A stretch of DNA of 64,000 nucleotides from a virus, in IMG/VR virus record IMGVR_UViG_3300003323_000334, positions 1 through 64,000 of that record. One strand, given 5' to 3'. Every line of letters begins with the position of its first letter. The first letter of the stretch is position 1. Under the pieces are notes generated by a model. That model did no database searches. It was not told the origin of the DNA and saw nothing but the letters and a program-made list of their open reading frames with translations. Both the position numbers and the translations under genes were made by a program. Shown here in pieces: positions 37,712 through 54,375 of the stretch.

Positions 37712-38917
37712 GTGACCATCAAACTGAACTGGTACACGACCGAGACCGGGTTAACAGCCCGGCTCGGTATCGGGAAGCATCAAAAGACGTTCCGGATTGA
37801 ACGGCGACCCCACGCTTACTGGAAGCGGAATGGGGAAGTGTGGGAACTGTTCTTCGAGAACAAGCGGATTTACGGTCTAGAATCCGTGTACATCGCACCC
37901 GATCTGTTCGGCAAACTGACCTCCGAAGAACAGGACGAGAACGTCCGCAGAAAGCGTGCCGCGAAACAGTCCTTAAAGGACGTTGCCAACGCCATCGCTA
38001 ACGGCAATCAGGCGTCCGTTTACCAAGAAGTGCTGTATTCCCTCCCGCAACGCGACAAGTTCGGCACAAAGCAAGCCTTTATCTACGCCATGAAGGAGGT
38101 GTTTCGACTAACGCATCTTCCGATAATGACTGTGACCGAAAAAGACAACACCAAACAATGGAGTACAGACTCCGAGTTCATTAGATCGTTTCCGCAACGT
38201 CACCGAGAGCAACAGCGACGAACACACGTTGCGTCGCCGATCGCAGCACAGGAAGTAAACGTCCCAGTAAAAACTGAGGCTTTGACAGCGAAGCCTGTCA
38301 AAGCTCTGAAGTACAAAGGTCCAGCTCCTGCTAACCGGAATAAAGAGACGCTAATCCCGGCTAGCATAGGGACCAAAAAGAAGTGTCCTGTTCTGATCGA
38401 AGGAACCAAGTTTAAGCACCTGTACAAATGGGCCGAAAAGACCCGAGACTGGTACCAAGCTAGAGGATATCACGCCGGGATTCTGTTCCTGATCCATACG
38501 TTGATGCACAGCCTTCCTACGTGCAAGCAGGCGTTAGCTGCGGGTCGCAAACTGTCCCTCATTTACAGGGAAGAATACGCCGCAGTCAACGCACAGTTCG
38601 CCGCGATGGTGTCTAAAGAACCTACCGAAGTTAAAAAGGAGGTGCCTGAAAAACAGCCGAAGCTTCCTAGGTCTAAAGAAAAGGACAAATGGGGCTACCG
38701 TGTGAGCACGCGGGCTGCGGCCGTTAACGCCGTGCTCAGCAAAGTGCCAATGTCGAAAGAGAAAATCACGGTGTTGGCAAAAGCACAAGGTGACATCGGT
38801 TCACATCTGTCCACTTTGATCAAACAGAAGTTGGTGGTTCGTACAGAAGAAGGGTTATACCGACTTCGCAAGAAAAAGAAGGTACCAAAACATGGTTCAA
38901 AAAAGAGCGGATCCTGA
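37712..38917 (+). CDS. hypothetical protein with C-terminal linker-histone-like winged helix and Lys-rich tail
   Basis: 401 aa with a GTG start. The C-terminus KWGYRVSTRAAAVNAVLSKVPMSKEKITVLAKAQGDIGSHLSTLIKQKLVVRTEEGLYRLRKKKK is paralogous to 40357-40560. Confidence 0.55.
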   Translation: MTIKLNWYTTETGLTARLGIGKHQKTFRIERRPHAYWKRNGEVWELFFENKRIYGLESVYIAPDLFGKLTSEEQDENVRRKRAAKQSLKDVANAIANGNQASVYQEVLYSLPQRDKFGTKQAFIYAMKEVFRLTHLPIMTVTEKDNTKQWSTDSEFIRSFPQRHREQQRRTHVASPIAAQEVNVPVKTEALTAKPVKALKYKGPAPANRNKETLIPASIGTKKKCPVLIEGTKFKHLYKWAEKTRDWYQARGYHAGILFLIHTLMHSLPTCKQALAAGRKLSLIYREEYAAVNAQFAAMVSKEPTEVKKEVPEKQPKLPRSKEKDKWGYRVSTRAAAVNAVLSKVPMSKEKITVLAKAQGDIGSHLSTLIKQKLVVRTEEGLYRLRKKKKVPKHGSKKSGS

Positions 38918-39573: not shown

Positions 39574-40683
39574 ATGAAAATGTCCAAAGAAGACGCGATC
39601 GCAGTGCTCCTCGCTCTCAAGTTCCAGAACGCAAAGTCCTTTACGACCGCTAAGATCAAGGACAAGATCAACGCTCTGACCGAAATCGTGGACGACTCCA
39701 TGATCAAGGCTATCAAGAACGTCAAGATCGCGAAGCTGCTGCGGGATGCGGTGAAGGCCATCAAGAAGGGCACCGAAATCGAAATCGAAGACCCCAAGGC
39801 AAAGAAGGAGGCCTCCAAGAAGCCTGCAGCCAAGCCTGTGAAGGGCAAGAAGTCTAAGGCTAAGGCTGAAGAGGAGGAAGAAGAGGAAGATTCGGAGGAC
39901 GAAGAGGAAGAAGAGGAAGATTCGGAGGACGAAGAGGAAGACGAAGAAGACTCCGAGGAGGACGAAGAGGAAGACGAGACCGATGAAGACGAAGACGGCG
40001 AAGATGACGAGGACGATGATTCCGATGACGACGATGATGGAGAAGACGATGACAGTGAAGAGGACGATGACGAGTCTGTAGACGAGGATGAGGAAGAAGA
40101 GGACGACGAAGATAACGACTCTGAAGATGATGAAGAAGAGGACGACGAAGAGGACGACGAAGAGGACGACGAAGAGGACGACGAAGAGGACGACGAAGAG
40201 GACGACGAAGAGGACGACTCTGAAGATGATGAAGAAGAGGACGACGAAGAGGACGAACCCGTGTCACCCAAAAAGAAAGGTAAAGACAAAGTGAACAAGA
40301 CCAAAAAGCCGGCCGCAGCTAAGAGCGGTGCCAAGAACGCCGACAAGCCCAAGGACAAGTGGGGCGCGACTCTCGGCACGAGGACTGCCGCGATCAACGC
40401 GGCCATCACTGACAAGCCTCAAACGCTCGGAGAAATCGCGAAGCGGGCGAAGGCCGAATCCATCAGCAGCCACATTAGCAAGTTGAAGGCCGAAGGGTGG
40501 ATCGTTCGCGACGATGACGGCAGGTATTCCATCAATCCGAAGAAGAAGGCGAAGGCGGCAGTGATCCCATCGCCAAAGAAGGCCCCGAAAGAGACAGTAA
40601 AAGAGTCCGCGAAGACCAAGCCGACTGCTAAGGTCTCTAAGAAGGCCGAAGCGGCTCCTGTGAAGAAGACCAAGAAGAAGTAA
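39574..40683 (+). CDS. poly-acidic protein with linker-histone-like winged helix and Lys/Ala/Pro-rich tails
   Basis: 369 aa. A helical N-domain is followed by KKPAAKPVKGKKSKAKA, then ~130 aa made almost entirely of Asp/Glu (39866-40260). The wHTH segment is KWGATLGTRTAAINAAITDKPQTLGEIAKRAKAESISSHISKLKAEGWIVRDDDGRYSI, and the tail ends ...KKAEAAPVKKTKKK. Confidence 0.7.
   Translation: MKMSKEDAIAVLLALKFQNAKSFTTAKIKDKINALTEIVDDSMIKAIKNVKIAKLLRDAVKAIKKGTEIEIEDPKAKKEASKKPAAKPVKGKKSKAKAEEEEEEEDSEDEEEEEEDSEDEEEDEEDSEEDEEEDETDEDEDGEDDEDDDSDDDDDGEDDDSEEDDDESVDEDEEEEDDEDNDSEDDEEEDDEEDDEEDDEEDDEEDDEEDDEEDDSEDDEEEDDEEDEPVSPKKKGKDKVNKTKKPAAAKSGAKNADKPKDKWGATLGTRTAAINAAITDKPQTLGEIAKRAKAESISSHISKLKAEGWIVRDDDGRYSINPKKKAKAAVIPSPKKAPKETVKESAKTKPTAKVSKKAEAAPVKKTKKK
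40135..40218 (+). repeat. 7 perfect tandem copies of GAAGAGGACGAC inside the acidic tract
   Basis: Read directly from the sequence (encodes EEDD x7). A 30-nt unit GAGGAAGAAGAGGAAGATTCGGAGGACGAA is also duplicated at 39871-39930. Confidence 0.9.
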
Positions 40684-40707
40684 TCGATTGGCTCTTCCTC
40701 TTCGTTG

Positions 40708-40749
40708 AACAACCGGGAGCTTGAAAACTCCCGGTTGTTTCCTTTTTCC
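40708..40749 (+). terminator. rho-independent terminator
   Basis: A 12-bp perfect stem AACAACCGGGAG / CTCCCGGTTGTT with an 8-nt loop, then TCCTTTTTCC. Confidence 0.8.
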
Positions 40750-40763
40750 TACAGGAGTTTCCC

Positions 40764-41216
40764 ATGGCGATGTGTGTGTCGATCGACAAGACGTTCGAAG
40801 CGGCTCATCGTCTCCTTAATCACCCAGGCAAGTGCAGATTCTTACACGGCCACAGCTACAACCTCACCGTTACAATCGGCCGCAAAGACGGCGGCGTTGG
40901 TCCCAGACAAATGGTGATCGACTTCGGAAACGCCAAAGAAATTATAAACGCCGTAGTAGACGGCGGATGGGACCACAATACGATTCTGAACGCGATCGAT
41001 CCCTTGGCAAAACGGCCTGATCTGATCGGTCGAGATCCGATGATCGTTTCGTGTACCGGACACGATCAAGATCCTACAGCCGAAATGATCGCTTTGCGCC
41101 TCAAAGAAGACATTGAGTCGGCTTTGAACGGTCGTTTTCCGAACGCGTTCGAAATCCTCAACGTCGTCGTCAAAGAGACCGACAAGTGCTCGGCCGAATG
41201 GTACCCTGATCGTTAA
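40764..41216 (+). CDS. queD: 6-carboxy-5,6,7,8-tetrahydropterin synthase
   Basis: 150 aa. FEAAHRLLNHPGKCRFLHGHSYNLTVTI carries the T-fold C-x3-HGH signature of QueD/PTPS. Confidence 0.85.
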   Translation: MAMCVSIDKTFEAAHRLLNHPGKCRFLHGHSYNLTVTIGRKDGGVGPRQMVIDFGNAKEIINAVVDGGWDHNTILNAIDPLAKRPDLIGRDPMIVSCTGHDQDPTAEMIALRLKEDIESALNGRFPNAFEILNVVVKETDKCSAEWYPDR

Positions 41217-41228
41217 CAGGAGAGTGCG

Positions 41229-41954
41229 ATGTATCCGCTCATCATGCGACCGAACACGCAACACCCGAAAGGTCCGCTGTACCGACAAGACGGTCAACTC
41301 GACGTGGTCGAGGTGTTCGAAACGATTCAAGGCGAAGGTCCGTACACCGGTCGTCCCGCAGTGTTCGTTCGCCTCGAAGGATGCAACCTGAAGTGTCCTG
41401 GGTGTGACACCGACTACACCAGTAACCGTGAGTTGTATTCTCCGACCATGCTGTTGACTATGATCAACGACAGGTTCGCTCGGCGCAAAGAAATCGATGG
41501 TGACAACACGCTGATCGTCCTGACTGGCGGCGAACCACTCAGGCAGAACATCGCGCCATTCGTTCGTGACGCCAAGCACGATGGTTGGAACATTCAGCTG
41601 GAGACGAACGGAACACTCTTCAACGAAGACCTGCCCGTGCTCGGGATGGACATCGTGTGCAGTCCTAAAACACCTAACGTCCGAGACGAACTGAAGGATC
41701 ACATCTGCTGCCTGAAGTACGTCATCGAGGCCGGCTTCGTTAGCGAGGAAGATGGGTTGCCGATCAGTGTTATGGGTCTGAACGTCACTCCTGCTCGCCC
41801 GTGGCCAACGTTCAAAGGCGAGGTCATCGTTCAACCTTTCGATGTGGGGAACGCTCGCGCCAACATTAATAACTTGGACGCCGCGGTAGAAAGCTGTCTG
41901 AAGTTCGGGTACACACTCGGGGTTCAGGTACACAAGATTGCTCGGCTGAAGTGA
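41229..41954 (+). CDS. queE: 7-carboxy-7-deazaguanine synthase (radical SAM)
   Basis: FETIQGEGPYTGRPAVFVRLEGCNLKCPGCDTDY is the characteristic QueE N-terminus and cluster motif. Confidence 0.85.
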   Translation: MYPLIMRPNTQHPKGPLYRQDGQLDVVEVFETIQGEGPYTGRPAVFVRLEGCNLKCPGCDTDYTSNRELYSPTMLLTMINDRFARRKEIDGDNTLIVLTGGEPLRQNIAPFVRDAKHDGWNIQLETNGTLFNEDLPVLGMDIVCSPKTPNVRDELKDHICCLKYVIEAGFVSEEDGLPISVMGLNVTPARPWPTFKGEVIVQPFDVGNARANINNLDAAVESCLKFGYTLGVQVHKIARLK

Positions 41955-42155
41955 CTCGCTCAGAATCGATATTTTCGTTATGACCGAATGCTTCCGCGAA
42001 CCGAGGTGAACGATGCAGTGGATTCGTGGTCCGCCGGATGAACTAACGTCTGAAATGGGCGGCGATCGTGTGTATCGGCCATTAGACCTTCTTTGAGCGG
42101 TCGCTCATACGGAGGAAACTCGTGAGGAGAAACACCATGTAAAGTAATAAATCAA

Positions 42156-42190
42156 ACCTAGAGAGCTATTGGTAAGCTAGCTCTCTAGGT
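42156..42190 (+). other. 12-bp perfect stem-loop in the queE-folE spacer
   Basis: ACCTAGAGAGCT (42156-42167) pairs with AGCTCTCTAGGT (42179-42190) around an 11-nt loop. GTTATATAT follows, with no clean U-run. Confidence 0.6.
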
Positions 42191-42199
42191 GTTATATAT

Positions 42200-42296
42200 G
42201 GCAGGTGGAGCTAGCTCCAGCTAGGTGCTGTTATCGTACTCGGCACACTTAACTGGAGTCGGCAGCCCTCATGGGGTTGAAATCCCCAGCCTGCCC
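42200..42296 (+). other. tRNA-like three-way-junction RNA element (not a canonical tRNA)
   Basis: Acceptor-like 7-bp stem GGCAGGT (42200-42206) with GCCTGCC (42289-42295). T-arm-like TGGGG-TTGAAAT-CCCCA (42272-42288). Central long hairpin CTCCAG (42215-42220) with CTGGAG (42253-42258), enclosing GTGCTG/CGGCAC. No D-arm or 7-nt anticodon loop could be drawn. Confidence 0.35.
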
Positions 42297-42317
42297 TTCC
42301 TTTAAAAGGAGTATTTT

Positions 42318-42905
42318 ATGAAGTTCAACGCCACTGCCGTAAGCTACGCTGCTACCCAGGATTTGTTCCGAGAACTGATCAGCAGGTTCGACAACGAGCC
42401 TTCACGTCCAGGATTAAAAGATACTCCGGCTCGCTTAGAGAAAGCCTGGCAGGAAATGTTTTCAGGTTACTTCGTGACCGCCGAAAACATCGCCAAAATG
42501 CTCACCACGTTCGAAGAAGAAAAATCGGACGATATGGTGATTCAGAGGTTCATTCCGTTCAGCAGCACCTGTGAACATCATTTACTCCCATTTATGGGGC
42601 ACGCCACCATCGCGTACATTCCGGACGGACGCATCTTAGGACTGTCTAAATTCAGTAGGTTGCTAGACGTGTTCACCAAACGAATGCAGAATCAGGAACG
42701 CATTACGGTACAAGTCGCCGAAGCGTTTATGGAGCATCTGAAGCCGAAGGGTGCGGCTTGCGTTCTTACGGCGCAACACCTCTGCATGGAGTGTAGAGGT
42801 GTTAAAGTAGCAGGCGTCGAAACGACGACCTGTTGCCTGCGAGGCTGTTTCAGTTCCGAACCTACGCGATCTGAGTTCCTCAGGTTCGCAACAACGAAAG
42901 GGTAA
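42318..42905 (+). CDS. folE: GTP cyclohydrolase I
   Basis: PFSSTCEHHLLPFMGHATIAYIP, GLSKFSRLLDVFTKRMQNQERIT and TAQHLCMECRGVK are FolE type I signatures. AAGGAG RBS present. Confidence 0.9.
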   Translation: MKFNATAVSYAATQDLFRELISRFDNEPSRPGLKDTPARLEKAWQEMFSGYFVTAENIAKMLTTFEEEKSDDMVIQRFIPFSSTCEHHLLPFMGHATIAYIPDGRILGLSKFSRLLDVFTKRMQNQERITVQVAEAFMEHLKPKGAACVLTAQHLCMECRGVKVAGVETTTCCLRGCFSSEPTRSEFLRFATTKG

Positions 42906-42906
42906 C

Positions 42907-43191
42907 ATGGGCTTCAAGCAACAGCTTTTGAACTTCGAGAAGGCAAAGGTAAAAACGAAACCGCCGCAAACGCAAAAGAAAACCGAAGCAAAGCTCCCGA
43001 AAAAGGGAACACCTGAGTCCGCGTACAGAGATGGAGTGAAGGACATGGAACAACTTCGTTCCATGTTCAGCAAACGGTTTTGTAAACACCTGGTGTTCAT
43101 TCTCGGATTCTCCAGAAAAGGACCGCAGAGCGATCCGTTAATCAGGTCGTACTGTGACGGTTTTAACGACAAACTGGAGGACAAGGCGTGA
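42907..43191 (+). CDS. hypothetical basic protein
   Basis: 94 aa, 1 nt after the folE stop and overlapping the next gene (GTGA). Confidence 0.45.
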   Translation: MGFKQQLLNFEKAKVKTKPPQTQKKTEAKLPKKGTPESAYRDGVKDMEQLRSMFSKRFCKHLVFILGFSRKGPQSDPLIRSYCDGFNDKLEDKA

Positions 43192-43655
43192 CAACGCTCG
43201 AAGAATTCAATCAATGGTTTCAGACCAACAAATCGGTAGTAACGCGACGTTCTCCGTACGACGCGGCTAAACTCGCTTGGTTTGCTGCAAAGCAAACTCC
43301 TTTATTTGACGCAGGAAAATCGCCAGCAGATGTTTCGACGTTCATCATCGTTAAAACCGAGTTCGTTGGTTTTCACCGGTGGTGTGATGCGCCTGTGAAT
43401 GTGTCGTTCCTTCGCCAATTCCATCGACACGTGTTCAAAGTGGAGGTGACAATCAGAGTAGATCATCAAAATCGGGCCCTAGAGTTCTTCACCGAGCAAC
43501 AGAAAGTGGAGCTGTTCTGTCAAAAGTTTCACAACCAACATTTTGAAAAGTCCTGCGAAATGTTGGCTCAAGAAATCCTAGACAGTAATCCGGAGTATCA
43601 TTCCGTCAAGGTTAGCGAAGACGGTGAGAACGCCGGTATTGTGATTCGTAACTAA
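43188..43655 (+). CDS. divergent T-fold (QueD/PTPS-like) paralogue candidate
   Basis: 155 aa. FVGFHRWCDAPVNVSFLRQFHRHVFKVEVTIRV mirrors the F-x-A-x-H ... HGH-x-(Y/F)-x-V-x-V layout of QueD, but with HRH and no Cys four residues before it. Confidence 0.4.
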   Translation: MTTLEEFNQWFQTNKSVVTRRSPYDAAKLAWFAAKQTPLFDAGKSPADVSTFIIVKTEFVGFHRWCDAPVNVSFLRQFHRHVFKVEVTIRVDHQNRALEFFTEQQKVELFCQKFHNQHFEKSCEMLAQEILDSNPEYHSVKVSEDGENAGIVIRN

Positions 43656-43676: not shown

Positions 43677-44966
43677 ATGCTCTACTACGTCCCTCTTGAG
43701 TGCTACCGTCAGCGTTACACCATGCAACTCTCAGCCCCAAAAGTCGGGTGGTTCGAGAGTAAATGGATCGAGCACAACATTCCATACGTTCGAGTCGAAC
43801 CGAGTTACGCCGCTCTCGGCGAAAACTTTCCGAACAGAATGATTAACAACGGATCGGTACTCGATGCTGTAGGACGCAGCCGATACGCCATGAGTCAAAT
43901 CGACAACCTGCTGCTGATGCTGGATCGAGGAGAAATCAAGGACTCTGACGTAATCTACTTTGACGACTTCTGGCACCCAGGTATCGAGGCGTTTAAATAC
44001 ACCTGTGACATTTTAGGTAAACGACCACGAATGTACGCCTACTGCTGGGCTCAGTCGGTCGATCAGTTCGACTTCACCAACAAGATGAAACACTGGATTC
44101 GTCTGATCGAAAAAGGATACAGCGCGATACTCGATGGGGTGTTCGTTGCGAACACAGGCCTAAAGGAGCTGCTGTACGATCACGCCGTGTGTGACAGTCT
44201 AAAAATCCATGTGGTCGGTCTACCGTTCGACACCAAAGAAGTGCTGAGTCGAATGCCGGATTCGTACCGCGAGTTCATCTTAAATCCGCAATCACAAGAC
44301 ACGCCTAGTCCTAGACTGGATCGGGTAGTGTTCTCGTCTAGATGGGACTCAGAAAAGAACCCGATATTCTTTTTGAGGCTCGCCGCACTTGCAGCACGCG
44401 ATCCGGAGATGAGTCACGTCAAGTTCGCAGTGTGTTCGTCGGCACCGGAAATGAAAAGCAACAACAGCGGGCTTTTGACCGTGCTGTTCGGAGCAACAAA
44501 GGATCTGTCGAACTTCGAACTTCACACCAATCTGTCTAAAGAGGCGTACTACAAGCTGTTGGCCGAGTCCAAAGTTCAGTTCAACTGTGCCGACCAAGAT
44601 TGGACTTCGTTCACACTGCTGGAAGCGGTTACTGCCGGATGCTATCCACTCTATCCGTACTTCAGGAGTTTTTCGGAAGTGTTCTTGAACGGGTCGAGGT
44701 TTTTGTACGAGCACAAAAACCTCGACGCGGCGTATTCGAAACTGAAACAGTCTATATTAAACCAGTACCCGTTGCCAGATTCAGGAAAGTGGTCACACGA
44801 AGAGATCATAGGTCGCATGTGGATCGCCAAACGATTCAACGCCACTTGGTACCGAATCGCCAAGCATATGGGCGTCATTCCTGAAAACTTCTCTACCACT
44901 GTAGAGCACATCACCCCACCGTACGATCGCGAGCAAGTGAAGCGTGTCGATTGGGCGCGTCTCTAG
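43677..44966 (+). CDS. GT-B fold glycosyltransferase (candidate)
   Basis: 429 aa. The C-terminal half VVFSSRWDSEKNPIFFLRLA ... FTLLEAVTAGCYPLYPYF fits the GT-B donor-binding domain and E-x7-E-type region. Confidence 0.55.
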   Translation: MLYYVPLECYRQRYTMQLSAPKVGWFESKWIEHNIPYVRVEPSYAALGENFPNRMINNGSVLDAVGRSRYAMSQIDNLLLMLDRGEIKDSDVIYFDDFWHPGIEAFKYTCDILGKRPRMYAYCWAQSVDQFDFTNKMKHWIRLIEKGYSAILDGVFVANTGLKELLYDHAVCDSLKIHVVGLPFDTKEVLSRMPDSYREFILNPQSQDTPSPRLDRVVFSSRWDSEKNPIFFLRLAALAARDPEMSHVKFAVCSSAPEMKSNNSGLLTVLFGATKDLSNFELHTNLSKEAYYKLLAESKVQFNCADQDWTSFTLLEAVTAGCYPLYPYFRSFSEVFLNGSRFLYEHKNLDAAYSKLKQSILNQYPLPDSGKWSHEEIIGRMWIAKRFNATWYRIAKHMGVIPENFSTTVEHITPPYDREQVKRVDWARL

Positions 44967-45001: not shown

Positions 45002-45044
45002 CGCGATCGGGCGCCGAGTAGCGTTGCGCCCGATCGCGTGTTTT
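45002..45044 (+). terminator. rho-independent terminator after the glycosyltransferase gene
   Basis: A 13-bp perfect stem CGCGATCGGGCGC / GCGCCCGATCGCG with an 11-nt loop, then TGTTTT. Confidence 0.7.
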
Positions 45045-45130
45045 AGACGCGTTTAATCGCATTTGGCGCGTGCGCGAAAGCGACGCGCAATAATAAACGA
45101 AACTATACATCCTTGTGCGAGACTTCTACC

Positions 45131-45871
45131 ATGACCTCAACCTATACCACGCTCACGCATCCTATCCTTCAAAACACACTCCAAACCAACTCGATCAATT
45201 TCGGCATCACGACCAGATGTACCATGATTTGCCCGAAATGCTCGATCGACGTTCCTGGAATTAAGAACAGGAAAGAAGCTCAAGACGCCTCAATCTCTAC
45301 GATTCATTGGACGGCATCTGTGCTGACCGCTCGCGGTACATTCCAGCGAGTTCACATCACAGGAGGCGAACCGACGATTCACCATGCTTTCGGTTTGATG
45401 ACACCAGAGTTCAAAGACTGGTTCAAGGCTGAGTACCTTACTCTTGAAACCAACGGCGCTCTAGTCTTGAAGCACATCGAGGTCATCAAAAAGCACTTCG
45501 ACCTGGTGTTCATAACGCATTACGTTAAGGGCGCAATTTACCCGGACAATTTCGACAACACCGAAATCATCAAACGAGCTAAACAAGAACTCGGCGACAA
45601 GTTGATAACTGAGCCGCCGGTCCGACATGACCTAGAGCACATTAAATTGTCCTTGAGAACCGAGGATCAGAAGCGAGCGGAACACGTCGCCTGTTCCAAG
45701 TTTTACGAACCGGGATTACCGTGTGCGTGGTACGACGGATATTTGTACCCGTGCTGCGTCAGTTTCGGAATCGATCGCGACAGGTACAAAGTGCCGGTAA
45801 CCGAAGACTGGCGAACAGTGATTCAAGACCAGAACAAAGGGTGCAGCAATTGCCTCTATCGGGGAACCTAA
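45131..45871 (+). CDS. radical SAM enzyme with Cys-rich C-terminal (SPASM/twitch-like) region
   Basis: ATG 45131; the track start at 45113 is TTG. C-x3-C-x2-C motif in GITTRCTMICPKCS, SAM-binding ITGGEPT, and C-terminal CAWYDGYLYPCC ... GCSNC. Confidence 0.7.
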   Translation: MTSTYTTLTHPILQNTLQTNSINFGITTRCTMICPKCSIDVPGIKNRKEAQDASISTIHWTASVLTARGTFQRVHITGGEPTIHHAFGLMTPEFKDWFKAEYLTLETNGALVLKHIEVIKKHFDLVFITHYVKGAIYPDNFDNTEIIKRAKQELGDKLITEPPVRHDLEHIKLSLRTEDQKRAEHVACSKFYEPGLPCAWYDGYLYPCCVSFGIDRDRYKVPVTEDWRTVIQDQNKGCSNCLYRGT

Positions 45872-45872
45872 A

Positions 45873-46880
45873 ATGAGCGGTGCTAATCTAGGACACAAAC
45901 GTAAAGGCCGAGCCAAGACCATTGTGTCTCTAGACGGCCTGCCTCGCAGGTGCCGGAGCTTCATGCCTGATTCCGGTGCCCACAGTTTGTTCAACCTACA
46001 TTGCTTCGAAACCGCTAAACAAAACGGTAAAGAAGTCCGAGTTTTCAAAAAACCGAACGAACGGTATAAATGGTACTCACCTGACGGTAACAAGCTGTCT
46101 AAAGAGTTCCGTGCGTATCTGGACAAATACGTCGGCTTCATCGACAAGTACGGTAAAGGAATAGACCACTACGTTACAGTGGACGCGATCTACAATCCGG
46201 AGATATCATGGAAGAGTCTCAAGTACCTAGAGTCGTGGGGTCTGAAACCGATTCCAGTAATCCACCACAGAACCTCGATGCGCTGGATCGAAAAGCATTT
46301 GGACTCTGGTTACAACTACATCGGGCTTGGAGGTCTCGGGCAGCAAAGCACCAAGAACACTTACACGATATGGGCGGATCAGGTGTTCGACCGAATATGT
46401 CAGGGGAGCAAACGTCTGCCGTGTGTTAAGACTCACGGCTTTGCGATGACGAGCTATTCTCTAATACTCCGCTACCCTTGGTGGAGCGTTGACAGTTCTT
46501 CCGTGTTCAAATGTGCCGGTAACGGTAGCATCTTCGTTCCACACAAGAGACAAGGCTCTTTCACTTTCGGTGAGGAGCCTTACGTCATGGGTGTTAGTCA
46601 CAGGTCTAGTGCAAAGCAGTCCGACAAGCGACACTACGACAACCTAACAAAAGGTGAAAAGGCGATCGTCGCCGAATGGCTGAAGTCGATCGACATGATC
46701 CTAGGAACTGTGTCAGAAGACGGAGAAATGGACGAGTACGGAGTGTACTCGTCTTACAACGCCAGAGTGGTCGCTAATCTGAGGTTTTTCGAACGCTTTT
46801 TGGACTGGCTACCAAAATGGCCTTGGTCGTTTAAAATTCGACCGAAACGCGGCTTCTTGAAATGGGAGGATTTGACGTGA
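45873..46880 (+). CDS. dpdA: DpdA-type DNA (guanine) transglycosylase, TGT superfamily
   Basis: 335 aa. FMPDSGAHSLF, YIGLGGLG, KTHGFAMTS and WWSVDSSS match the phage DpdA/TGT motif series. It starts 1 nt after the radical-SAM gene stop. Confidence 0.8.
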   Translation: MSGANLGHKRKGRAKTIVSLDGLPRRCRSFMPDSGAHSLFNLHCFETAKQNGKEVRVFKKPNERYKWYSPDGNKLSKEFRAYLDKYVGFIDKYGKGIDHYVTVDAIYNPEISWKSLKYLESWGLKPIPVIHHRTSMRWIEKHLDSGYNYIGLGGLGQQSTKNTYTIWADQVFDRICQGSKRLPCVKTHGFAMTSYSLILRYPWWSVDSSSVFKCAGNGSIFVPHKRQGSFTFGEEPYVMGVSHRSSAKQSDKRHYDNLTKGEKAIVAEWLKSIDMILGTVSEDGEMDEYGVYSSYNARVVANLRFFERFLDWLPKWPWSFKIRPKRGFLKWEDLT

Positions 46881-49022: not shown

Positions 49023-50246
49023 ATGAAATTTAATGGACGAGGCTTCTTCGCTCTGTCAACGCTCATGCAGACGAAGAAGCCTCTACCGATCGTAGCCAAC
49101 TGCCAATCGTGTCGGTTGTGTACCACGGGTTGTAAAACTCCATACATGAAACCGACAGGAAAGGGAAAGCAGAAGATCCTGATCGTCGGCGAGTTTCCGG
49201 ACTCGGCAGACGACAGAACAGGAAAACCTTTTAGAGGAGAATCCGGGAAGCGAGCCAGATCGGAAGTGTCGGCAGCCGGATTAGACACGGACGCTGACGT
49301 AGTTTGGACCAACGCTCTGATATGCAACCCGCCAGGCGATCGCCCTCCGATGTCGAAGATCATTCCGTACTGTCGTCCGAACTTGATCAAAACGATCGAG
49401 TCGGTCAAACCGAACGTCATCTTGTTAATGGGGTCTATCGCGGTTAAAAGTCTGATAGGCTTTCTTTGGAAAGAAGACGTAGGCAAACTAAACAGATGGA
49501 TCGGATGGCGTATTCCGTGTCAAAGGTTTAATGCATGGATATGTCCGACTTATCATCCAGATCACCTGAGGAACAAGAATCATCCGGTAATGGACTTGAT
49601 GTTCAAGCAGCAGGTCCGATGGGCGTGTTCACAAACGAAACCTCCTTGGGAAACTGTTCCTGATTTAAGGAGTAGAGTCCGCGTCGTATTCGACCCTGAC
49701 GAAGCCGCATCGATCATCCGAAAAATGACGGATAATGTGAAACGGCCGGTTGCGTTCGACTATGAAACCAACATGCTGAAACCGGAGAACGAGCGGGCCA
49801 AGATCGTGTGTTGCTCCGTCAGTGACGGAAAGACCACGATCGCGTTCCCATGGATCGGTGAAGCGGTCAAAGCGATGAAGGCGTTTTTCCGGTCGAACGT
49901 TCCTAAAATCGCCTCGAACATGAAGTTCGAAGATCGTTGGACGAATTGTAAAGTCGGTGTAAGCGTTCGAAACTGGAAGCTGGACACGATGTTGGCGGCG
50001 CACGTTCTGGACAACAGACCAGAAATCACAAGTATCAAGTTTCAGGCTTTCGTCCGTTTAGGACAAGAAAGCTACGACGACCACATTAAGCCGTTCTTGA
50101 AATCGAAAGAGTCCGGCGGGTACGCAGAAAACCGAATTGATGAAGTCGATCCGCACGACCTGATGACCTACTGCGCCTTAGACTCTCTACTCGAATGGCG
50201 CGTAGCCTTAAAGCAATACGAGGAGCTTAGCAATGATCACGGCTAA
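49023..50246 (+). CDS. family-4 UDG-like domain fused to DnaQ-like 3'-5' exonuclease (N-terminal part of a split family-A polymerase)
   Basis: UDG4 motifs: CQSCRLC, ILIVGEFPDSADDRTGKPFRGESGK, VWTNALICNPP. Exonuclease motifs: VAFDYETNML (Exo I) and YCALDSLL (Exo III). Confidence 0.75.
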   Translation: MKFNGRGFFALSTLMQTKKPLPIVANCQSCRLCTTGCKTPYMKPTGKGKQKILIVGEFPDSADDRTGKPFRGESGKRARSEVSAAGLDTDADVVWTNALICNPPGDRPPMSKIIPYCRPNLIKTIESVKPNVILLMGSIAVKSLIGFLWKEDVGKLNRWIGWRIPCQRFNAWICPTYHPDHLRNKNHPVMDLMFKQQVRWACSQTKPPWETVPDLRSRVRVVFDPDEAASIIRKMTDNVKRPVAFDYETNMLKPENERAKIVCCSVSDGKTTIAFPWIGEAVKAMKAFFRSNVPKIASNMKFEDRWTNCKVGVSVRNWKLDTMLAAHVLDNRPEITSIKFQAFVRLGQESYDDHIKPFLKSKESGGYAENRIDEVDPHDLMTYCALDSLLEWRVALKQYEELSNDHG

Positions 50247-50842: not shown

Positions 50843-51081
50843 CACTTCTCCAACGTTGGATAACAGGTTTAGAGGGCGTGCTCGATTCGTTAGCCAAACG
50901 GCTAACAGTAGACAAGAAAGACAAGTGGAACTTTAATCCGTTTGTTTTTCTGCTTTTTCTAGGCCTAGCAATAACAGTAACCTTTTTGGACGTTCTCGAC
51001 GAAGAAGTCCGAAAAGTCCAAAAATCAATCGAAAAACTCCGGTCTGCTTTTATCCTTTACGTGTTTCAGGAAAGAAAATGA
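50839..51081 (+). CDS. small membrane protein
   Basis: ATG 50839 (ATGA overlap). TM segment FVFLLFLGLAITVTFL. ATGA overlap with the RNR gene. Confidence 0.45.
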   Translation: MTLLQRWITGLEGVLDSLAKRLTVDKKDKWNFNPFVFLLFLGLAITVTFLDVLDEEVRKVQKSIEKLRSAFILYVFQERK

Positions 51082-53363
51082 TTCCTCACGAACCGCATAC
51101 TTTCTCCGCGAACTCTCAGGCCATCCATGAAAAGCGATACCTCGACAAAGACGCTGGCACTATTGAAAAGCTCCATCGTCGCGTCAGTGGAGGTAACGAA
51201 GAATACTTCCGGCTGATGAACAACGCATGGTTCATGCCAAACAGTCCGGCTCTGTTTAACATGGGTACCAAACAGGGAGGAACGTCTAGCGCCTGTTTCG
51301 TGTTCGACCTGGACGACTCTCTTCTGGGAGACTGGCCTAACGGCGGACTTCCCGAACCTTTCGCCAACAGCATTCTAGGAACTACGTTCAAAGCCGCAGC
51401 AGTCGCTAAAGCCGGCGGCGGTGTCGGTTACTATTTGGGCAAACTTCGCGAAGAAGGAGCCGAAGTAAAATCGACGCACAAGAAAGCGTGCGGTCCGGTG
51501 ACAGTGCTGCGCTGGCTTAACGGAATCAACCGACTTATCACACAAGGAGGGAAACGAGCGCTCGCTCAGATGGGGATTCTTGACGCTCATCATCCTGATA
51601 TCAGGAAGTTCATTCACGTTAAGGATGAAAATCCGGATGAACTGTCCAGTTTCAACATAAGCGTGAGCTGGCGTAATGACTGGCTTAAACAGGTCGATTT
51701 CGATATGTTCCCTGTGTTTAACGGGAAAGCGATTTCGACGTTAGGAAAGAACAACCAAACTGCGTTATGGTGGGAACAGTGTCACTCTGCCTGGAAGACA
51801 GGTGACCCTGGGATGTTCTTCTACGACACTATGAATCTATCGAATGTGACCCCTCATATAGGCAACATCAACGCAACCAATCCTTGTGGCGAGACTCCTA
51901 ACTTGTCAGACGAACCTTGTAATCTCGGATCAATCAGTCTGATTAAGTTCGTCCGTAAAATCGGCAACAAGTTCGTGTTTCTATGGGATCTGTTCAAAGA
52001 GGTAGTTCGGGCGTCAATTCGATTCATGGACGACATCCTTGATTGGAACGTATTTCCACATCCAGACATCACGAAAATGGCTTTGTCTACAAGGAAGCTG
52101 GGTTTGGGTGTGATGGGTTACGCCGCAACGCTCCACCTGCTCGGATACGACTACGACACGCAAGACGCGGTCGATTGGGGCGAAGAGTTGATGAAGGTCC
52201 AAAATCAAACGGCTTTGGACGAAAGTGACAAGCTCGGACATTCTAAGGGAGTGTATCCTGCGTTCGATAAAGTCCGATCGCCTCATTGGGCACCAATGGT
52301 CCGCAACAGCACCAGAACGAGCATCGCTCCAACAGGAACTATTTATCTGTTGTCTGACGCCCAGACTAGCGGCATCGAACCGTACTTCGCACTCGAAACA
52401 CAACGTACTACTGGAGAAGGGCTGAAACTGCGAGAATCGGTGAGTGCTGTCGCAGAAACAGGTCGAACGCCCAAACTGGCGAACGAAATCGGGATCGAAT
52501 GGCACGTTCGTCACCAGGCCGCTTTCCAGAAGCACACTGACTTAGGCGTGTCCAAGACGATCAATCTGCCAAAGTCCGCGTCGATCAAGGACGTCAGCGA
52601 TTGCTACCGTCTCATGTGGCAATTAGGTTGTAAAGGCGGGACTATCTATCGCGACGGGTGCCGAGACGATCAAGTGCTCCGAGACGTTAGCAAAAAGACC
52701 ACCAACGTCTATGTATCGGGTAACGTCGAATCAGAGGTGCTAAAGCCGTATCTCGAGGAGATCGAATCGCTCAAGAAAAACGTCGCAACGCTCGCCGCTG
52801 CAACGAAGACTTCGAAATCGCCCCAACGTCGTAAGATGCCGAACGAACGCAACGGCAGCACACACAAATTCAAAATCGGAGGGACTGAAGGATATCTGAC
52901 CGCGAACACCTACGAAGATGGGACTTTAGGCGAAATCTTCGTAGTAGTGGACGGACAAGGATCTACGCTCGACGGATTCCTGGATGCTTGGTGCAAAGCG
53001 TTTAGCACCGCGTTGCAGTACGGAACTCCGTTAGACAAGTTGATCAAACTCCACAAGCACTCGAAGTTTGAACCGGCCGGGTTTACAGGTAATCCTAAAG
53101 TGCCGAACTGCACTTCACTGGTCGATTACATCGTGCGCTGGCTAGAAATTCGTTTTCTCAAACAAACCAAACAGCCGAACATATCAAACGATGTTAAATC
53201 GGCAGTTTTAGAGATTCTAGGCAACACAATTAGCACTGCCGAAACTGAAGTGATGTCAATGATCCGGTCAGGTGAGTTCTGTCCGGATTGTCACGAAGAG
53301 TTGATCCGTCAGGCCGGGTGTCTAGTGTGTGTCACGCCGAAGTGCGGTTTTTCAAAATGTTAA
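51078..53363 (+). CDS. nrdJ: ribonucleotide reductase, large catalytic chain (class II-like)
   Basis: 761 aa. FMPNSPALFNMGT...SSACFV, NATNPCGETPN (active-site Cys/Glu loop), and C-terminal CPDCHEELIRQAGCLVCVTPKCGFSKC. No nrdB-like gene is in the window. The class assignment is inferred. Confidence 0.8.
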   Translation: MIPHEPHTFSANSQAIHEKRYLDKDAGTIEKLHRRVSGGNEEYFRLMNNAWFMPNSPALFNMGTKQGGTSSACFVFDLDDSLLGDWPNGGLPEPFANSILGTTFKAAAVAKAGGGVGYYLGKLREEGAEVKSTHKKACGPVTVLRWLNGINRLITQGGKRALAQMGILDAHHPDIRKFIHVKDENPDELSSFNISVSWRNDWLKQVDFDMFPVFNGKAISTLGKNNQTALWWEQCHSAWKTGDPGMFFYDTMNLSNVTPHIGNINATNPCGETPNLSDEPCNLGSISLIKFVRKIGNKFVFLWDLFKEVVRASIRFMDDILDWNVFPHPDITKMALSTRKLGLGVMGYAATLHLLGYDYDTQDAVDWGEELMKVQNQTALDESDKLGHSKGVYPAFDKVRSPHWAPMVRNSTRTSIAPTGTIYLLSDAQTSGIEPYFALETQRTTGEGLKLRESVSAVAETGRTPKLANEIGIEWHVRHQAAFQKHTDLGVSKTINLPKSASIKDVSDCYRLMWQLGCKGGTIYRDGCRDDQVLRDVSKKTTNVYVSGNVESEVLKPYLEEIESLKKNVATLAAATKTSKSPQRRKMPNERNGSTHKFKIGGTEGYLTANTYEDGTLGEIFVVVDGQGSTLDGFLDAWCKAFSTALQYGTPLDKLIKLHKHSKFEPAGFTGNPKVPNCTSLVDYIVRWLEIRFLKQTKQPNISNDVKSAVLEILGNTISTAETEVMSMIRSGEFCPDCHEELIRQAGCLVCVTPKCGFSKC

Positions 53364-53376
53364 AAGGAGATATATT

Positions 53377-54375
53377 ATGGGCTCGTTCGTTCAACCAAAA
53401 GTCTTCTTGGTCGGTGCTACTGGAGCAAACGTTTCCGGCATCATTGATTACTTGAAGTACACAAAACAGGAAGAGTTTCTCCAAGACATCAACACGGCGT
53501 TAGACAGCGGAATATCTTACGCAGAGGTGCTGTGCAGTCTGTTCGCCAAACTGTGCTACAAGAGTCTGGTGGTCGGCAAGAACGCGAACATCAGCAAGAC
53601 CCGAGAAATCAAAAAGAATCTGGAGGCCACTTACGACGCGGCTCACGGTTCAGTGTTCGAGCACGTCGGGTTAAACTTTCTGCTCACCGACGTTTCTCGG
53701 GTGCTGACGCACGAAGCGGTGAGGCATCGTGTTGGTACCGCATTCAGCCAAACTAGTGGGCGATACTGCCGGCTCGACTCGATCGATTTGGTATGGGATC
53801 CAATTCTTGATCCGGTAAAGGAGTTATTCGACAAGTGCGCGAAGAACATCGAAGACACGGTGTACCTGGCCGAGTGCAAACTCGGACTCAGAAAGCCTCC
53901 TGAAAGGCTTTCTGATAACATCAAGAGCTTAGTCGAACACAACCCGTTATGGTGGAAATACCATTCTGAAAACGGACCTGCTCCAGAACTTCAGTGGGTT
54001 CCAGACAACAGTTTCGATTTCGACAAACGGAAGAAGATCACGTCCGCAATTCGTAGGATTGCTCCTAACGGACAGTCCAACGAAATCGCGATGTCGATCA
54101 ACATCCGGGCATTACGTCACATAGTCCAACTTCGAACAGCACCGGGCGCCGAGTGGGAGATCAGGAACGTGTTCGCTCAGGTGTATCACCTGGTAGCGGC
54201 ACAGTATCCGACAATCTTCTATAAAGCGAAGACCAGGATGATCGACGAGCAGCTTCAGGTTTACGGTATGCGATTGCAACCGTATGAGATTGAAGCCGGA
54301 GATCCGAAAGCACTCAGTTTCTGGACGACAGCAGACCTCAAAGCCGAAGTCGCGAACAGGGAGCTTGCTGAATGA
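53377..54375 (+). CDS. thyX: flavin-dependent thymidylate synthase
   Basis: ATG 53377 has an AAAGGAGA RBS; the track start at 53329 lies inside the RNR gene. LTHEAVRHRVGTAFSQTSGRY is the ThyX RHR-x7-S motif. Confidence 0.85.
   Translation: MGSFVQPKVFLVGATGANVSGIIDYLKYTKQEEFLQDINTALDSGISYAEVLCSLFAKLCYKSLVVGKNANISKTREIKKNLEATYDAAHGSVFEHVGLNFLLTDVSRVLTHEAVRHRVGTAFSQTSGRYCRLDSIDLVWDPILDPVKELFDKCAKNIEDTVYLAECKLGLRKPPERLSDNIKSLVEHNPLWWKYHSENGPAPELQWVPDNSFDFDKRKKITSAIRRIAPNGQSNEIAMSINIRALRHIVQLRTAPGAEWEIRNVFAQVYHLVAAQYPTIFYKAKTRMIDEQLQVYGMRLQPYEIEAGDPKALSFWTTADLKAEVANRELAE

What the first reader, a model, noticed from the sequence alone, without database searches (positions are those of the whole stretch)
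43677..44966. GT-B glycosyltransferase embedded in the deazaguanine operon
The 429-aa ORF has a GT-B-type C-terminal half (VVFSSRWDSEKNPIFFLRLA ... FTLLEAVTAGCYPLYPYF). It is the last gene of the folE transcription unit and ends at a strong terminator (45002-45044). As far as I know, phage DNA glycosyltransferases act on hydroxymethyl-pyrimidines, and a glycosylated 7-deazapurine has not been described. Co-transcription with folE suggests a sugar-decorated deazaguanine. A non-DNA target such as a virion protein or the host envelope is a less exciting alternative.
Basis: inference. Interest (0 to 1): 0.75.

Follow-up and report, generated by a model that had tools for sequence, protein, structure and literature searches.

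The report
Phage glycosyltransferase paired with deazaguanine genes
A phage-specific sugar-transferring enzyme sits inside the gene cluster that replaces guanine in the phage's DNA with 7-deazaguanine, and it keeps the same partner gene in hundreds of unrelated phages, which points to a sugar-decorated purine in DNA that nobody has yet described chemically.

Summary
The 429-aa ORF at 43677-44966 (+) is real. It folds as a GT-B glycosyltransferase: AlphaFold2 pLDDT is 91.6 and the best PDB matches are retaining GT4 enzymes. It lies in a cluster without QueC: QueD, QueE, FolE, a 94-aa unknown, DpdL, GT, an extra radical-SAM protein, DpdA.

The GT belongs to a large, essentially phage-only family: at least 591 viral contigs, against 7 short MAG contigs among 185,579 species genomes. 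It is almost always paired with DpdL, the QueD-like protein predicted to decarboxylate 7-carboxy-7-deazaguanine. DpdL lies on the same strand in 83 of 88 loci, and the 5 exceptions are cut by contig ends. DpdL occurs without the GT (for example phiST, which carries plain dDG), but the GT was not seen without DpdL. In relatives the GT is flanked by a phage GalE (UDP-glucose 4-epimerase) and a small nucleotidyltransferase. Its donor-binding half is specifically similar to human QTMAN, the enzyme that mannosylates queuosine in tRNA.

The best reading is that the GT adds a sugar to a DpdL-dependent 7-deazaguanine derivative destined for, or already in, phage DNA. The acceptor atom, the sugar and the timing are unknown. 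I found no paper describing this. Verdict: a new variant of a known system, unproven chemically.

The parts
40707..40740 (+). Terminator-like hairpin (13 pairs, T-rich tail) just upstream of QueD; the likely boundary before the QueD-to-GT gene block
40764..41216 (+). QueD (6-carboxy-tetrahydropterin synthase, PTPS family)
   Evidence: PF01242 E 1.3e-24; phrog_2389
41229..41954 (+). QueE (7-carboxy-7-deazaguanine synthase, radical SAM)
   Evidence: phrog_2076 E 2.4e-53; PF04055
42318..42905 (+). FolE (GTP cyclohydrolase I)
   Evidence: PF01227 E 4e-61
42907..43191 (+). 94-aa basic protein of unknown function. A homolog sits in the same place (between FolE and DpdL) in L006 and L007.
43188..43655 (+). 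DpdL: QueD-like T-fold protein carrying the LxxxHRHxF motif (LRQFHRHVF), the predicted CDG decarboxylase. The first ~49 codons are probably not translated.
   Evidence: Motif and alignment with phiST and ACP17 DpdL. Model residues 50-155 have pLDDT above 90 and the top PDB hit is E. coli QueD. Family definition is in PMC10516641.
43677..44966 (+). The finding: a phage-specific GT4-like GT-B glycosyltransferase whose C-terminal domain is QTMAN-like
45002..45044 (+). Stable hairpin (13-bp stem, 11-nt loop) followed by UGUUUUAG; a possible intrinsic terminator or attenuator after the GT
45113..45871 (+). Extra radical-SAM protein (MoaA/viperin-like N-terminal half), function unknown, not conserved in related loci
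45873..46880 (+). DpdA-like DNA guanine transglycosylase (about 31% identity to DpdA of phage 9g-type viruses)
   Evidence: phrog_887 E 4.9e-30; tblastn

Best explanation
The ORF encodes an active, phage-specific GT-B (GT4-like) glycosyltransferase that works in the phage's 7-deazaguanine DNA-modification pathway. Proposed pathway: FolE, QueD and QueE make 7-carboxy-7-deazaguanine (CDG). There is no QueC, so the pathway does not go on to preQ0. DpdL processes CDG, by predicted decarboxylation to 7-deazaguanine. The GT then transfers a sugar from a nucleotide sugar onto the DpdL-dependent deazaguanine. The donor is probably a UDP-hexose such as UDP-galactose in relatives that carry GalE, and host-supplied in this phage. 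Transfer happens either on the free base before DpdA swaps it into DNA, or on the base once it is in DNA. The result would be a glycosylated 7-deazaguanine that shields the DNA from nucleases. Shown here: the fold, retention of the donor-binding residues, the genetic coupling, and the presence of sugar-nucleotide genes in relatives. Inferred: that sugar transfer occurs at all, the acceptor, the linkage (the C7 region; a C-glycoside on 7-deazaguanine or an ester on CDG are the chemically available options), and the timing.
For: (1) GT-B fold with high confidence; the best matches are retaining GT4 enzymes. Residues that align with the diphosphate-binding R and K of GT4 enzymes (R222, K227; alignment to WlaC/PglA) and the D308-x7-E316 counterpart of the EX7E motif are invariant in 36 family members. 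(2) The gene is embedded in a QueD-QueE-FolE-DpdL-GT-(rSAM)-DpdA block. No QueC is found in the 64-kb window or in any of 102 related loci. (3) At least 591 viral contigs encode a relative, and there are 451 clusters at 50% identity with E<=1e-30. Only 7 hits, all short MAG contigs, occur among 185,579 species genomes. (4) In the 80 best viral loci plus cultured phages, a DpdL homolog lies on the same strand, at a median distance of 316 nt, in 83 of 88 loci. All 5 exceptions are truncated by a contig end. The pairing holds across unrelated backbones: PolA/UDG phages of 60-100 kb, T4-like PolB phages, and jumbo phages up to 385 kb. (5) The relationship is asymmetric. DpdL occurs without the GT in the phiST group, RHph_I1_18, MA9V-3, Bakedbeans, Roos, Ahp1 and D479. 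The GT was not seen without DpdL, which fits a GT that acts on or after the DpdL product. (6) In relatives the GT is flanked by a GalE that passes the NCBIfam equivalog cutoff (298 bits against 262). GalE lies within 5 kb in 29 loci and is directly adjacent in 17. A small nucleotidyltransferase is adjacent in 11 loci, and some loci carry a second GT4-like gene. (7) The family HMM scores human QTMAN, which glycosylates a 7-deazaguanine nucleoside in tRNA, at 65 bits over the C-terminal domain. Every GT4 enzyme in the PDB, and the other GT family in the same loci, scores 19 bits or less. (8) PA5oct, which carries the pair, has DNA that resists enzymes with G in their sites, and the chemical identity of that modification is undetermined (PMC12191111).
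Against: No chemical data exist for any phage that carries the pair. 7-Deazaguanine has no hydroxyl or amine at C7 and CDG has only a carboxylate, so an ordinary O-glycoside is not available. C-glycosylation or ester formation by a GT4-type enzyme has no precedent that I know of. phiST makes plain dDG without this GT, so the GT is not needed for the base itself. The N-terminal (acceptor) domain has no informative relatives. The family is mildly acidic (median pI 6.0, against 9.6 for DpdA), which does not favour a DNA-binding enzyme and leaves base-level versus DNA-level action open. This phage has no sugar-nucleotide genes of its own.
Confidence: 0.5

Rival explanations
1. The GT is an accessory enzyme needed to make or deliver 7-deazaguanine, and the final DNA base is plain dDG with no sugar. 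For example, it could transiently activate CDG as a glycosyl ester that DpdL then decarboxylates, or it could act as a partner of DpdL.
For: Cui et al. could not obtain dDG in E. coli from ACP17 dpdL plus dpdA and suggested that other enzymes may be required (PMC10516641). ACP17 carries the GT directly upstream of DpdL (ASD50404.1, HMM E 2e-49). The pairing with DpdL is tight.
Against: phiST and its relatives have dDG in their DNA yet no GT near the cluster, and the phiST reconstitution failed as well. A dedicated GalE, a nucleotidyltransferase and sometimes a second GT next to the gene fit stoichiometric sugar consumption better than a catalytic helper role.
Confidence: 0.15
2. The GT glycosylates something other than a deazaguanine: a virion or other phage protein, host envelope glycans, or host tRNA (for example queuosine, as QTMAN does). 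On this view its position in the cluster is incidental.
For: GT4 enzymes have very diverse acceptors. The C-terminal domain resembles QTMAN, an RNA-modifying enzyme. The protein is not basic.
Against: The pairing with DpdL is conserved in 83 of 88 loci across unrelated phage backbones. The gene always sits among replication and nucleotide-metabolism genes, not structural or lysogeny genes. The family is virtually absent from cellular genomes. The QTMAN N-terminal domain PF12038 is absent.
Confidence: 0.1
3. The GT decorates a different DNA base (a hydroxymethyl- or hydroxy-pyrimidine), as T4, SP-15 or RB69 do, and merely neighbours the deazaguanine genes.
For: Every phage DNA sugar reported in the papers I read is attached through a hydroxyl on a pyrimidine (10.1101/2025.06.16.659550; 10.1101/2025.03.26.645540).
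Against: No ThyA-type hydroxymethylase or hydroxylase is found in the 64-kb window; only ThyX, a dCTP-deaminase-like protein and RNR are present. No such gene recurs near the GT in 88 loci. T4 Agt and Bgt are not among the top 50 structural matches.
Confidence: 0.05
4. FolE, the QueD-like T-fold protein and the GT make a glycosylated pterin, as in cyanobacterial biopterin glucoside synthesis, rather than a DNA base.
For: From general knowledge, GTP cyclohydrolase I plus a PTPS-family enzyme plus a group-1 glycosyltransferase is the logic of pteridine glycoside pathways. DpdL is structurally closest to QueD/PTPS.
Against: QueE and a DpdA-type transglycosylase accompany the pair wherever the flanks are long enough. 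No sepiapterin-reductase-like gene recurs. The clusters sit next to DNA polymerase genes. I could not compare directly with a pteridine glycosyltransferase sequence.
Confidence: 0.04

Closest known systems
Phage 7-deazaguanine DNA modification systems (FolE/QueD/QueE +/- QueC, DpdA; the dDG branch with DpdL, as in Cellulophaga phage phiST; Hutinet 2019, Cui 2023 PMC10516641)
   Same: The same biosynthetic genes, a DpdA-family transglycosylase, no QueC, and a DpdL with the LxxxHRHxF motif. The cluster sits in the replication module.
   Different: phiST has no glycosyltransferase and its DNA carries plain dDG. Here, and in hundreds of other viral contigs, a dedicated GT is coupled to DpdL, often together with GalE. 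The DpdA here is closer to the 9g type (about 31% identity) than to phiST's DpdA3. The GT is not mentioned in the 2023 paper.
QTMAN / GTDC1, the tRNA-queuosine alpha-mannosyltransferase (Pfam PF12038 + PF00534)
   Same: A GT-B enzyme whose acceptor is a 7-deazaguanine nucleoside in a nucleic acid. The C-terminal donor-binding domain shares specific motifs (RW[DE]xxK[DN]PxxFF; LEAxxxGCYP; [FY]PE[IT]F). The family HMM scores it at 65 bits and hhalign gives 98% probability.
   Different: The N-terminal QTMAN_N domain is not detectable in the phage family. The QTMAN acceptor is the cyclopentenediol of queuosine in tRNA-Asp, and this phage cannot make queuosine. The context is DNA-modification genes.
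T4 alpha- and beta-glucosyltransferases and other phage DNA sugar transferases (arabinosyl-5-hydroxycytosine in RB69/DLP3; glycosylated 5-hmU derivatives in SP-15/YerA41)
   Same: Phage-encoded transfer of a sugar to give hypermodified DNA that evades nucleases. The GT-B fold is shared with T4 Agt and Bgt.
   Different: Those enzymes act on a hydroxyl of a modified pyrimidine made by a thymidylate-synthase homolog, and no such gene is present here. There is no specific sequence or structural similarity. The proposed acceptor here is a purine analogue.
Small-molecule GT4 enzymes (BshA, MshA, GlgM, LmbT, PglA)
   Same: These are the best structural matches (Foldseek E about 1e-11). They share the retaining GT4 architecture and donor-binding residues.
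   Different: Sequence identity is 10-14%. Their acceptors are unrelated (malate, inositol phosphate, glucose-1-phosphate, ergothioneine, lipid-linked sugar), and so is their genomic context.

Membership tests
GT-B fold glycosyltransferases, GT4-like (Pfam clan of Glycos_transf_1) | Two Rossmann-like domains with an inter-domain cleft | tested here: met
   AlphaFold2 model with pLDDT 91.6. There are 286 PDB matches with E<=1e-3; the top ones are BshA, MshA, PglA and GlgM at prob 1.00.
GT-B fold glycosyltransferases, GT4-like (Pfam clan of Glycos_transf_1) | Significant match to a group-1 glycosyltransferase sequence model | tested here: inconclusive
   The window protein alone gives only PF13524 at 16.6 bits, below the cutoff of 25. 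Of its homologs, 27 of 36 match PF00534, with a best E of 6e-11.
GT-B fold glycosyltransferases, GT4-like (Pfam clan of Glycos_transf_1) | Conserved donor-binding residues (the R and K that hold the diphosphate; acidic residues of the EX7E region) | tested here: met
   R222, K227, D308 and E316 are invariant in 36 sequences. R222 and K227 align with the GRLDHNKNP segment of WlaC/PglA. Assigning roles to these residues rests on general knowledge of GT4 enzymes.
GT-B fold glycosyltransferases, GT4-like (Pfam clan of Glycos_transf_1) | Sugar transfer from a nucleotide sugar | not testable with these tools
   Indirect only: GalE and a nucleotidyltransferase are adjacent to the GT in relatives.
T4-type DNA glucosyltransferases (Agt/Bgt) | Specific sequence or structural similarity to Agt or Bgt | tested here: not met
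   Neither is among the top 50 PDB matches. In the viral library the only 'DNA alpha-GT' (S-TIM5) is at rank 32 with 10% identity.
T4-type DNA glucosyltransferases (Agt/Bgt) | Co-occurrence with an enzyme that makes a hydroxymethyl- or hydroxy-pyrimidine | tested here: not met
   Only ThyX, a dCTP-deaminase-like protein and RNR are found in the window. No such gene recurs near the GT in relatives.
QTMAN (tRNA-queuosine alpha-mannosyltransferase) | QTMAN-type C-terminal glycosyltransferase domain | tested here: met
   BLASTP E 1e-9. hhalign 98% probability, E 2.8e-13. Family HMM 65 bits, against 19 bits or less for other GT4 enzymes. The human sequence was verified by exact look-up.
QTMAN (tRNA-queuosine alpha-mannosyltransferase) | N-terminal QTMAN_N domain (PF12038) | tested here: not met
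   No PF12038 hit at E<=10 for the window protein, nor at E<=0.01 in 36 members. hhalign aligns only the C-terminal domain.
QTMAN (tRNA-queuosine alpha-mannosyltransferase) | Acceptor is queuosine-34 of tRNA-Asp; donor is GDP-mannose | not testable with these tools
   The phage lacks QueC and the later queuosine genes.
Phage 7-deazaguanine DNA modification cluster, DpdL (dDG) branch | FolE, QueD and QueE present, QueC absent | tested here: met
   A search with E. coli QueC (validated as PF06508, E 3e-83) finds nothing in the window or in 102 loci.
Phage 7-deazaguanine DNA modification cluster, DpdL (dDG) branch | DpdL: a QueD-like T-fold with LxxxHRHxF in place of CxxxHGH | tested here: met
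   LRQFHRHVF is present. It is homologous to phiST and ACP17 DpdL. The model is a T-fold whose top hit is E. coli QueD. The motif definition comes from PMC10516641.
Phage 7-deazaguanine DNA modification cluster, DpdL (dDG) branch | DpdA-family DNA transglycosylase | tested here: met
   phrog_887 E 4.9e-30. tblastn finds 166 phage records annotated as queuine tRNA-ribosyltransferase or 7-deazaguanosine-inserting enzyme. There is no Pfam hit.
Phage 7-deazaguanine DNA modification cluster, DpdL (dDG) branch | A 7-deazaguanine derivative actually present in virion DNA | not testable with these tools
   The window comes from a metagenome. The only indirect data are for PA5oct, whose modified G was inferred from restriction digests (PMC12191111).

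The most novel reading that the evidence does not exclude
Phages carrying the DpdL-GT pair put a sugar on a 7-deazaguanine in their DNA. This would be the first glycosylated purine-type base in any DNA. Because 7-deazaguanine offers only the nucleophilic pyrrole carbon C7 (and CDG only a carboxylate), the linkage would be a C-glycoside or an acyl glycoside made by a GT4-like enzyme, which is chemistry not known for that enzyme class. The enzyme's donor-binding domain would share ancestry with the animal enzyme that mannosylates queuosine in tRNA. That would link sugar decoration of 7-deazaguanines in RNA and in DNA.
Probability: 0.4. Interest if true: 0.9.

Novelty: new variant of a known kind. 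Interest (0 to 1): 0.78.

Why it matters
Eight 7-deazaguanine derivatives are known in phage DNA, and none carries a sugar. The phage DNA sugars in the papers I read are all on pyrimidines. A conserved, phage-restricted glycosyltransferase coupled to DpdL in hundreds of viral genomes predicts a new class of DNA hypermodification. These genomes include cultured phages (ACP17, PA5oct, X1, BUCT-ZZ01, BCSR5, Phosso), so the prediction can be tested directly by nucleoside mass spectrometry. The finding may also explain why the dDG pathway of ACP17 could not be reconstituted from dpdL and dpdA alone. It identifies the likely nature of the unidentified 'modified G' of the therapeutic-candidate jumbo phage PA5oct. 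It also matters for restriction and type IV defence evasion, and for sequencing and cloning of such DNA. Finally, the QTMAN-like donor domain offers an evolutionary lead on enzymes that recognise 7-deazaguanine nucleosides.

Tried and rejected
1. Megablast of the cluster against 50,697 phage genomes found nothing, so there is no close cultured relative.
2. PHROGs and NCBIfam gave no hit for the GT.
3. A profile search of PDB sequences gave only marginal hits (WlaC at E 0.004; a PhzD hit at E 0.005 in the N-terminal domain that I regard as chance).
4. I looked for the QTMAN N-terminal domain in the phage family and did not find it.
5. I asked whether the ~524-aa protein conserved upstream of DpdL in T4-like and jumbo relatives is a DpdA. 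hhalign links it at 94% to the X1/ACP17/BUCT-ZZ01 family, which is annotated as queuine tRNA-ribosyltransferase in X1. It does not link to the window's DpdA family, and Pfam, PHROGs and NCBIfam are silent, so this stays unresolved.
6. The extra radical-SAM gene is not conserved in relatives, so I did not build it into the mechanism.
7. The search for GT-DpdL fusion proteins was under-powered. None appeared among the top GT hits, and the DpdL search returned only 8 proteins.
8. The tRNA-like-looking spacer between QueE and FolE gave no tRNA and no Rfam match.
9. Literature searches for a glycosylated deazaguanine in DNA, or for any later mention of DpdL, found nothing. The 2024 MMBR review (PMC10966956) is not held. 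A 'dDG' hit in 10.1101/2025.03.26.645540 turned out to be ddGTP.
10. The supplementary tables of PMC10516641 are not held, so I could not check which phages its authors list as DpdL-positive.
Full report
**Observation.** By sequence alone the glycosyltransferase call is weak. Pfam gives only PF13524 at 16.6 bits, below its cutoff, and PHROGs and NCBIfam give nothing. The gene is nevertheless real and conserved. A search of the large protein collection found 336 homologs, many carrying PF00534 or PF13692, and 27 of 36 aligned members match PF00534. The AlphaFold2 model built on that alignment is confident (pLDDT 91.6, pTM 0.91). It matches GT-B enzymes of the retaining GT4 type: BshA, MshA, PglA, GlgM, LmbT and OtsA, with Foldseek E about 1e-11. 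Residues R222 and K227 align with the diphosphate-binding segment of WlaC/PglA. Together with D308 and E316 they are invariant across the family. T4 Agt and Bgt, however, are not among the close matches.

**Context in the window.** All of the following lie on the + strand:
- QueD, 40764-41216
- QueE, 41229-41954
- FolE, 42318-42905
- a 94-aa unknown, 42907-43191
- a 155-aa protein, 43188-43655
- the GT, 43677-44966
- a radical-SAM protein, 45113-45871
- a DpdA-like transglycosylase, 45873-46880

These are followed by a sliding clamp and a UDG-exonuclease/PolA replication module. It carries LRQFHRHVF, the LxxxHRHxF signature that Cui et al. 2023 use to define DpdL, their predicted 7-carboxy-7-deazaguanine decarboxylase (PMC10516641). 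[quoted passage not shown] Its model is a T-fold closest to E. coli QueD. No QueC is present in the 64-kb window. The pathway is therefore the DpdL branch, which in phiST yields 2'-deoxy-7-deazaguanosine.

**Transcription signals.** The hairpin after the GT (45002-45044) is real and stable (-27 to -30 kcal/mol, z = -3.1). Its U tract is short and the consensus terminator scan did not list it. A clearer terminator-like hairpin precedes QueD (40707-40740). 'Last gene of a transcription unit' is thus plausible, but the functional cluster continues past the hairpin.

**Relatives.** tblastn against cultured phages found the GT in 21 records. These include:
- Synechococcus phage BUCT-ZZ01 (36% identity)
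- Xanthomonas phage X1
- the PA5oct group of Pseudomonas jumbo phages
- Burkholderia phage BCSR5
- Sinorhizobium phage Phosso

In the three records I opened (BUCT-ZZ01, X1, PA5oct) the gene sits among FolE, QueD and QueE genes. A scan of IMG/VR found at least 591 viral contigs encoding a relative. A full HMMER pass over 1.84 billion cluster representatives found 451 clusters at E<=1e-30. A scan of one genome for each of 185,579 prokaryotic species found only 7 hits. All are on short MAG contigs, and six of the seven also carry DpdL next to the GT. The family is therefore essentially viral.

**The DpdL-GT pair.** I extracted ORFs from the 80 best viral loci plus the cultured-phage loci and built iterated HMMs from the window's own proteins. 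I then clustered all ORFs within 5 kb of the GT.
- A DpdL homolog lies on the same strand as the GT in 83 of 88 loci.
- DpdL is the immediate neighbour in 29 loci, and one or two ORFs away in a further 49.
- The median gap is 316 nt.
- The five loci without DpdL are all cut by a contig end on one side.
- The family HMM also detects the GT in ACP17 (ASD50404.1, E 2e-49), directly upstream of its DpdL. Foldseek independently ranks that protein second in the viral library.
- No QueC is found in any of the 102 loci.

The pair occurs in two unrelated architectures. The window type is QueD-QueE-FolE-DpdL-GT-DpdA-clamp-UDG/PolA. The second type, in T4-like and jumbo phages, is PolB-c4-c3-DpdL-(small ORF)-GT-... 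with FolE, QueD and QueE nearby. The relation is asymmetric. DpdL occurs without the GT within 10 kb in the phiST group, RHph_I1_18, MA9V-3, Bakedbeans, Roos, Ahp1 and D479. The GT was never seen without DpdL. That pattern is expected if the GT acts on, or after, the DpdL product.

**Sugar supply.** In the second architecture the GT is flanked by sugar-nucleotide genes. One is a protein that passes the NCBIfam equivalog cutoff for GalE, the UDP-glucose 4-epimerase (298 bits against 262). GalE lies within 5 kb of the GT in 29 loci and directly adjacent in 17. Another is a small cytidylyltransferase-family nucleotidyltransferase, adjacent in 11 loci. BUCT-ZZ01 and eight other loci carry a second GT4-like protein. 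Eleven loci also carry a bona fide GMP reductase (540 bits against 397). This could recycle the guanine released by base exchange, but that is my inference. The window phage has none of these genes and would have to use host nucleotide sugars. These neighbours make it very likely that the family transfers sugars stoichiometrically.

**The QTMAN link.** The motifs RWDxEKNPxFF and LEAxxAGCYPxYP reminded me of human GTDC1/QTMAN, the enzyme that mannosylates queuosine (a 7-deazaguanine nucleoside) in tRNA-Asp. I wrote that sequence from memory and then verified it. It matches Pfam QTMAN_N at 1e-67, and it is found letter for letter in the protein collection as QTMAN_HUMAN.
- BLASTP against the window protein gives E 1e-9 over the C-terminal domain.
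- hhalign between the two family alignments gives 98% probability, E 2.8e-13.
- The phage-family HMM scores QTMAN at 65 bits.
- Every GT4 enzyme in the PDB, and the second GT family in the same loci, scores 19 bits or less.

The similarity stops at the donor-binding C-terminal half. The QTMAN_N domain is not detectable. The phage enzyme is thus not a QTMAN, but its donor domain is specifically related to the one enzyme family known to glycosylate a 7-deazaguanine in a nucleic acid.

**Mechanism.** The steps up to CDG follow from established functions of FolE, QueD and QueE. The DpdL step is a published prediction supported by the dDG found in phiST. Base insertion by DpdA is established for the family. 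That the GT adds a sugar to a deazaguanine is inferred from the coupling to DpdL, the sugar-nucleotide neighbours, the viral restriction of the family and its place in the replication module.

The acceptor is the weak point. 7-Deazaguanine offers only ring carbons in the major groove, and CDG offers only a carboxylate. The linkage would therefore have to be a C-glycoside (C7 of the pyrrole ring is the nucleophilic position, from general chemistry) or an acyl glycoside. Neither is known for GT4-type enzymes. Precedent from T4, RB69 and QTMAN favours glycosylation on the polymer. The family's mild acidity (median pI 6.0 against 9.6 for DpdA), the small-molecule acceptors of its structural neighbours, and the DpdL-GT-DpdA gene order lean towards action on the free base before insertion. 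I cannot decide between these two timings.

**Rivals.**
- The GT is a helper needed to make dDG. This would explain the failed ACP17 reconstitution, but phiST makes dDG without it.
- The target is not DNA (a protein, the envelope or tRNA).
- The target is a modified pyrimidine. No hydroxymethylase is present.
- The product is a pterin glycoside.

Each is less consistent with the conserved pairing than the main model.

**Literature.** In the library held, no open-access paper other than Cui et al. 2023 mentions DpdL in this sense. No paper links a glycosyltransferase to deazaguanine in DNA. PA5oct DNA was shown by restriction digests to carry a modified G, and QueE and a PTPS homologue were noted there, but no mass spectrometry was done on it (PMC12191111). 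The 2024 MMBR review could not be read, so prior mention there cannot be excluded.

**Verdict.** This is a widespread, phage-specific DpdL-GT module inside QueC-less 7-deazaguanine clusters, and it predicts a sugar-bearing deazaguanine. It is a new variant of a known system. Interest is high because the prediction is specific and can be tested at once in cultured phages.

Noticed in passing
window 41955-42317 (especially 42150-42300): The 364-nt spacer between QueE and FolE contains several hairpins and a stretch that looks tRNA-like by eye (GGCAGG ... GGGGTTGAAATCCCC ... CCTGCC). ARAGORN finds no tRNA and Rfam finds no family.
   Followed up: partly
window 45113-45871: A second radical-SAM protein (MoaA/viperin-like N-terminal half, TTG start) is inserted between the GT and DpdA. 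It has no counterpart in 102 related loci, and its role, if any, in the modification is unknown.
   Followed up: partly
window 43188-43340: The first ~49 codons of the DpdL ORF (GTG start overlapping the stop of the upstream gene) are absent from all homologs and are modelled with low confidence. The real start is probably near codon 45-50.
   Followed up: partly
window 37712-38917 and 39574-40683: Two neighbouring proteins share a ~70-aa C-terminal domain (KDKWG..TR.AA.NA...). The second also has a run of about 150 residues made almost entirely of Asp and Glu. PHROGs finds no match for 37712-38917; 39574-40683 was not searched against any family library.
   Followed up: no
window 49023-50246, 51078-53363, 53329-54375, 54534-56024: The family-A DNA polymerase is split. 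A UDG plus 3'-5' exonuclease protein and the polymerase domain are separate genes with a class II-like RNR and a long ThyX between them. The same UDG-exonuclease gene follows the cluster in related contigs.
   Followed up: no
L035 13683-14663; L047 9887-10360; L073 5695-6774; L001 6001-7344: In relatives the GT/DpdL pair is flanked by a phage GalE, a small cytidylyltransferase-family nucleotidyltransferase, a bona fide GMP reductase and, in 9 loci, a second GT4-like protein. BUCT-ZZ01 also has a xanthine-guanine phosphoribosyltransferase in the cluster. This hints at guanine recycling and at di-glycosylation.
   Followed up: partly
L099 9215-10366 (Vibrio phage Bakedbeans gp176); L098 9485-10366 (Chryseobacterium phage MA9V-3): In these phages, which have no GT within 10 kb, the DpdL domain is the C-terminal part of longer proteins (383 and 293 aa) with unidentified N-terminal domains.
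   Followed up: no
L003 5364-6986 (PA5oct QCG76197.1) and 47 other loci; L002 8103-9416 (X1): A ~524-aa protein with no Pfam, PHROG or NCBIfam match is conserved just upstream of DpdL in T4-like and jumbo relatives. It is mutually exclusive with the window-type DpdA. hhalign links it (94%) to the ~430-aa family annotated as queuine tRNA-ribosyltransferase in phage X1, so it may be a further, unrecognised DpdA subfamily.
   Followed up: partly
L097 10426-11250 (Rhizobium phage RHph_I1_18): In this GT-less phage, DpdL is followed directly by a macro-domain ('Appr-1-p processing') protein.
   Followed up: no
window 56525-57301: An N6/N4 DNA methyltransferase (PF01555, E 9e-53) is also encoded in the replication module, so this phage probably carries a second kind of DNA modification.
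   Followed up: no
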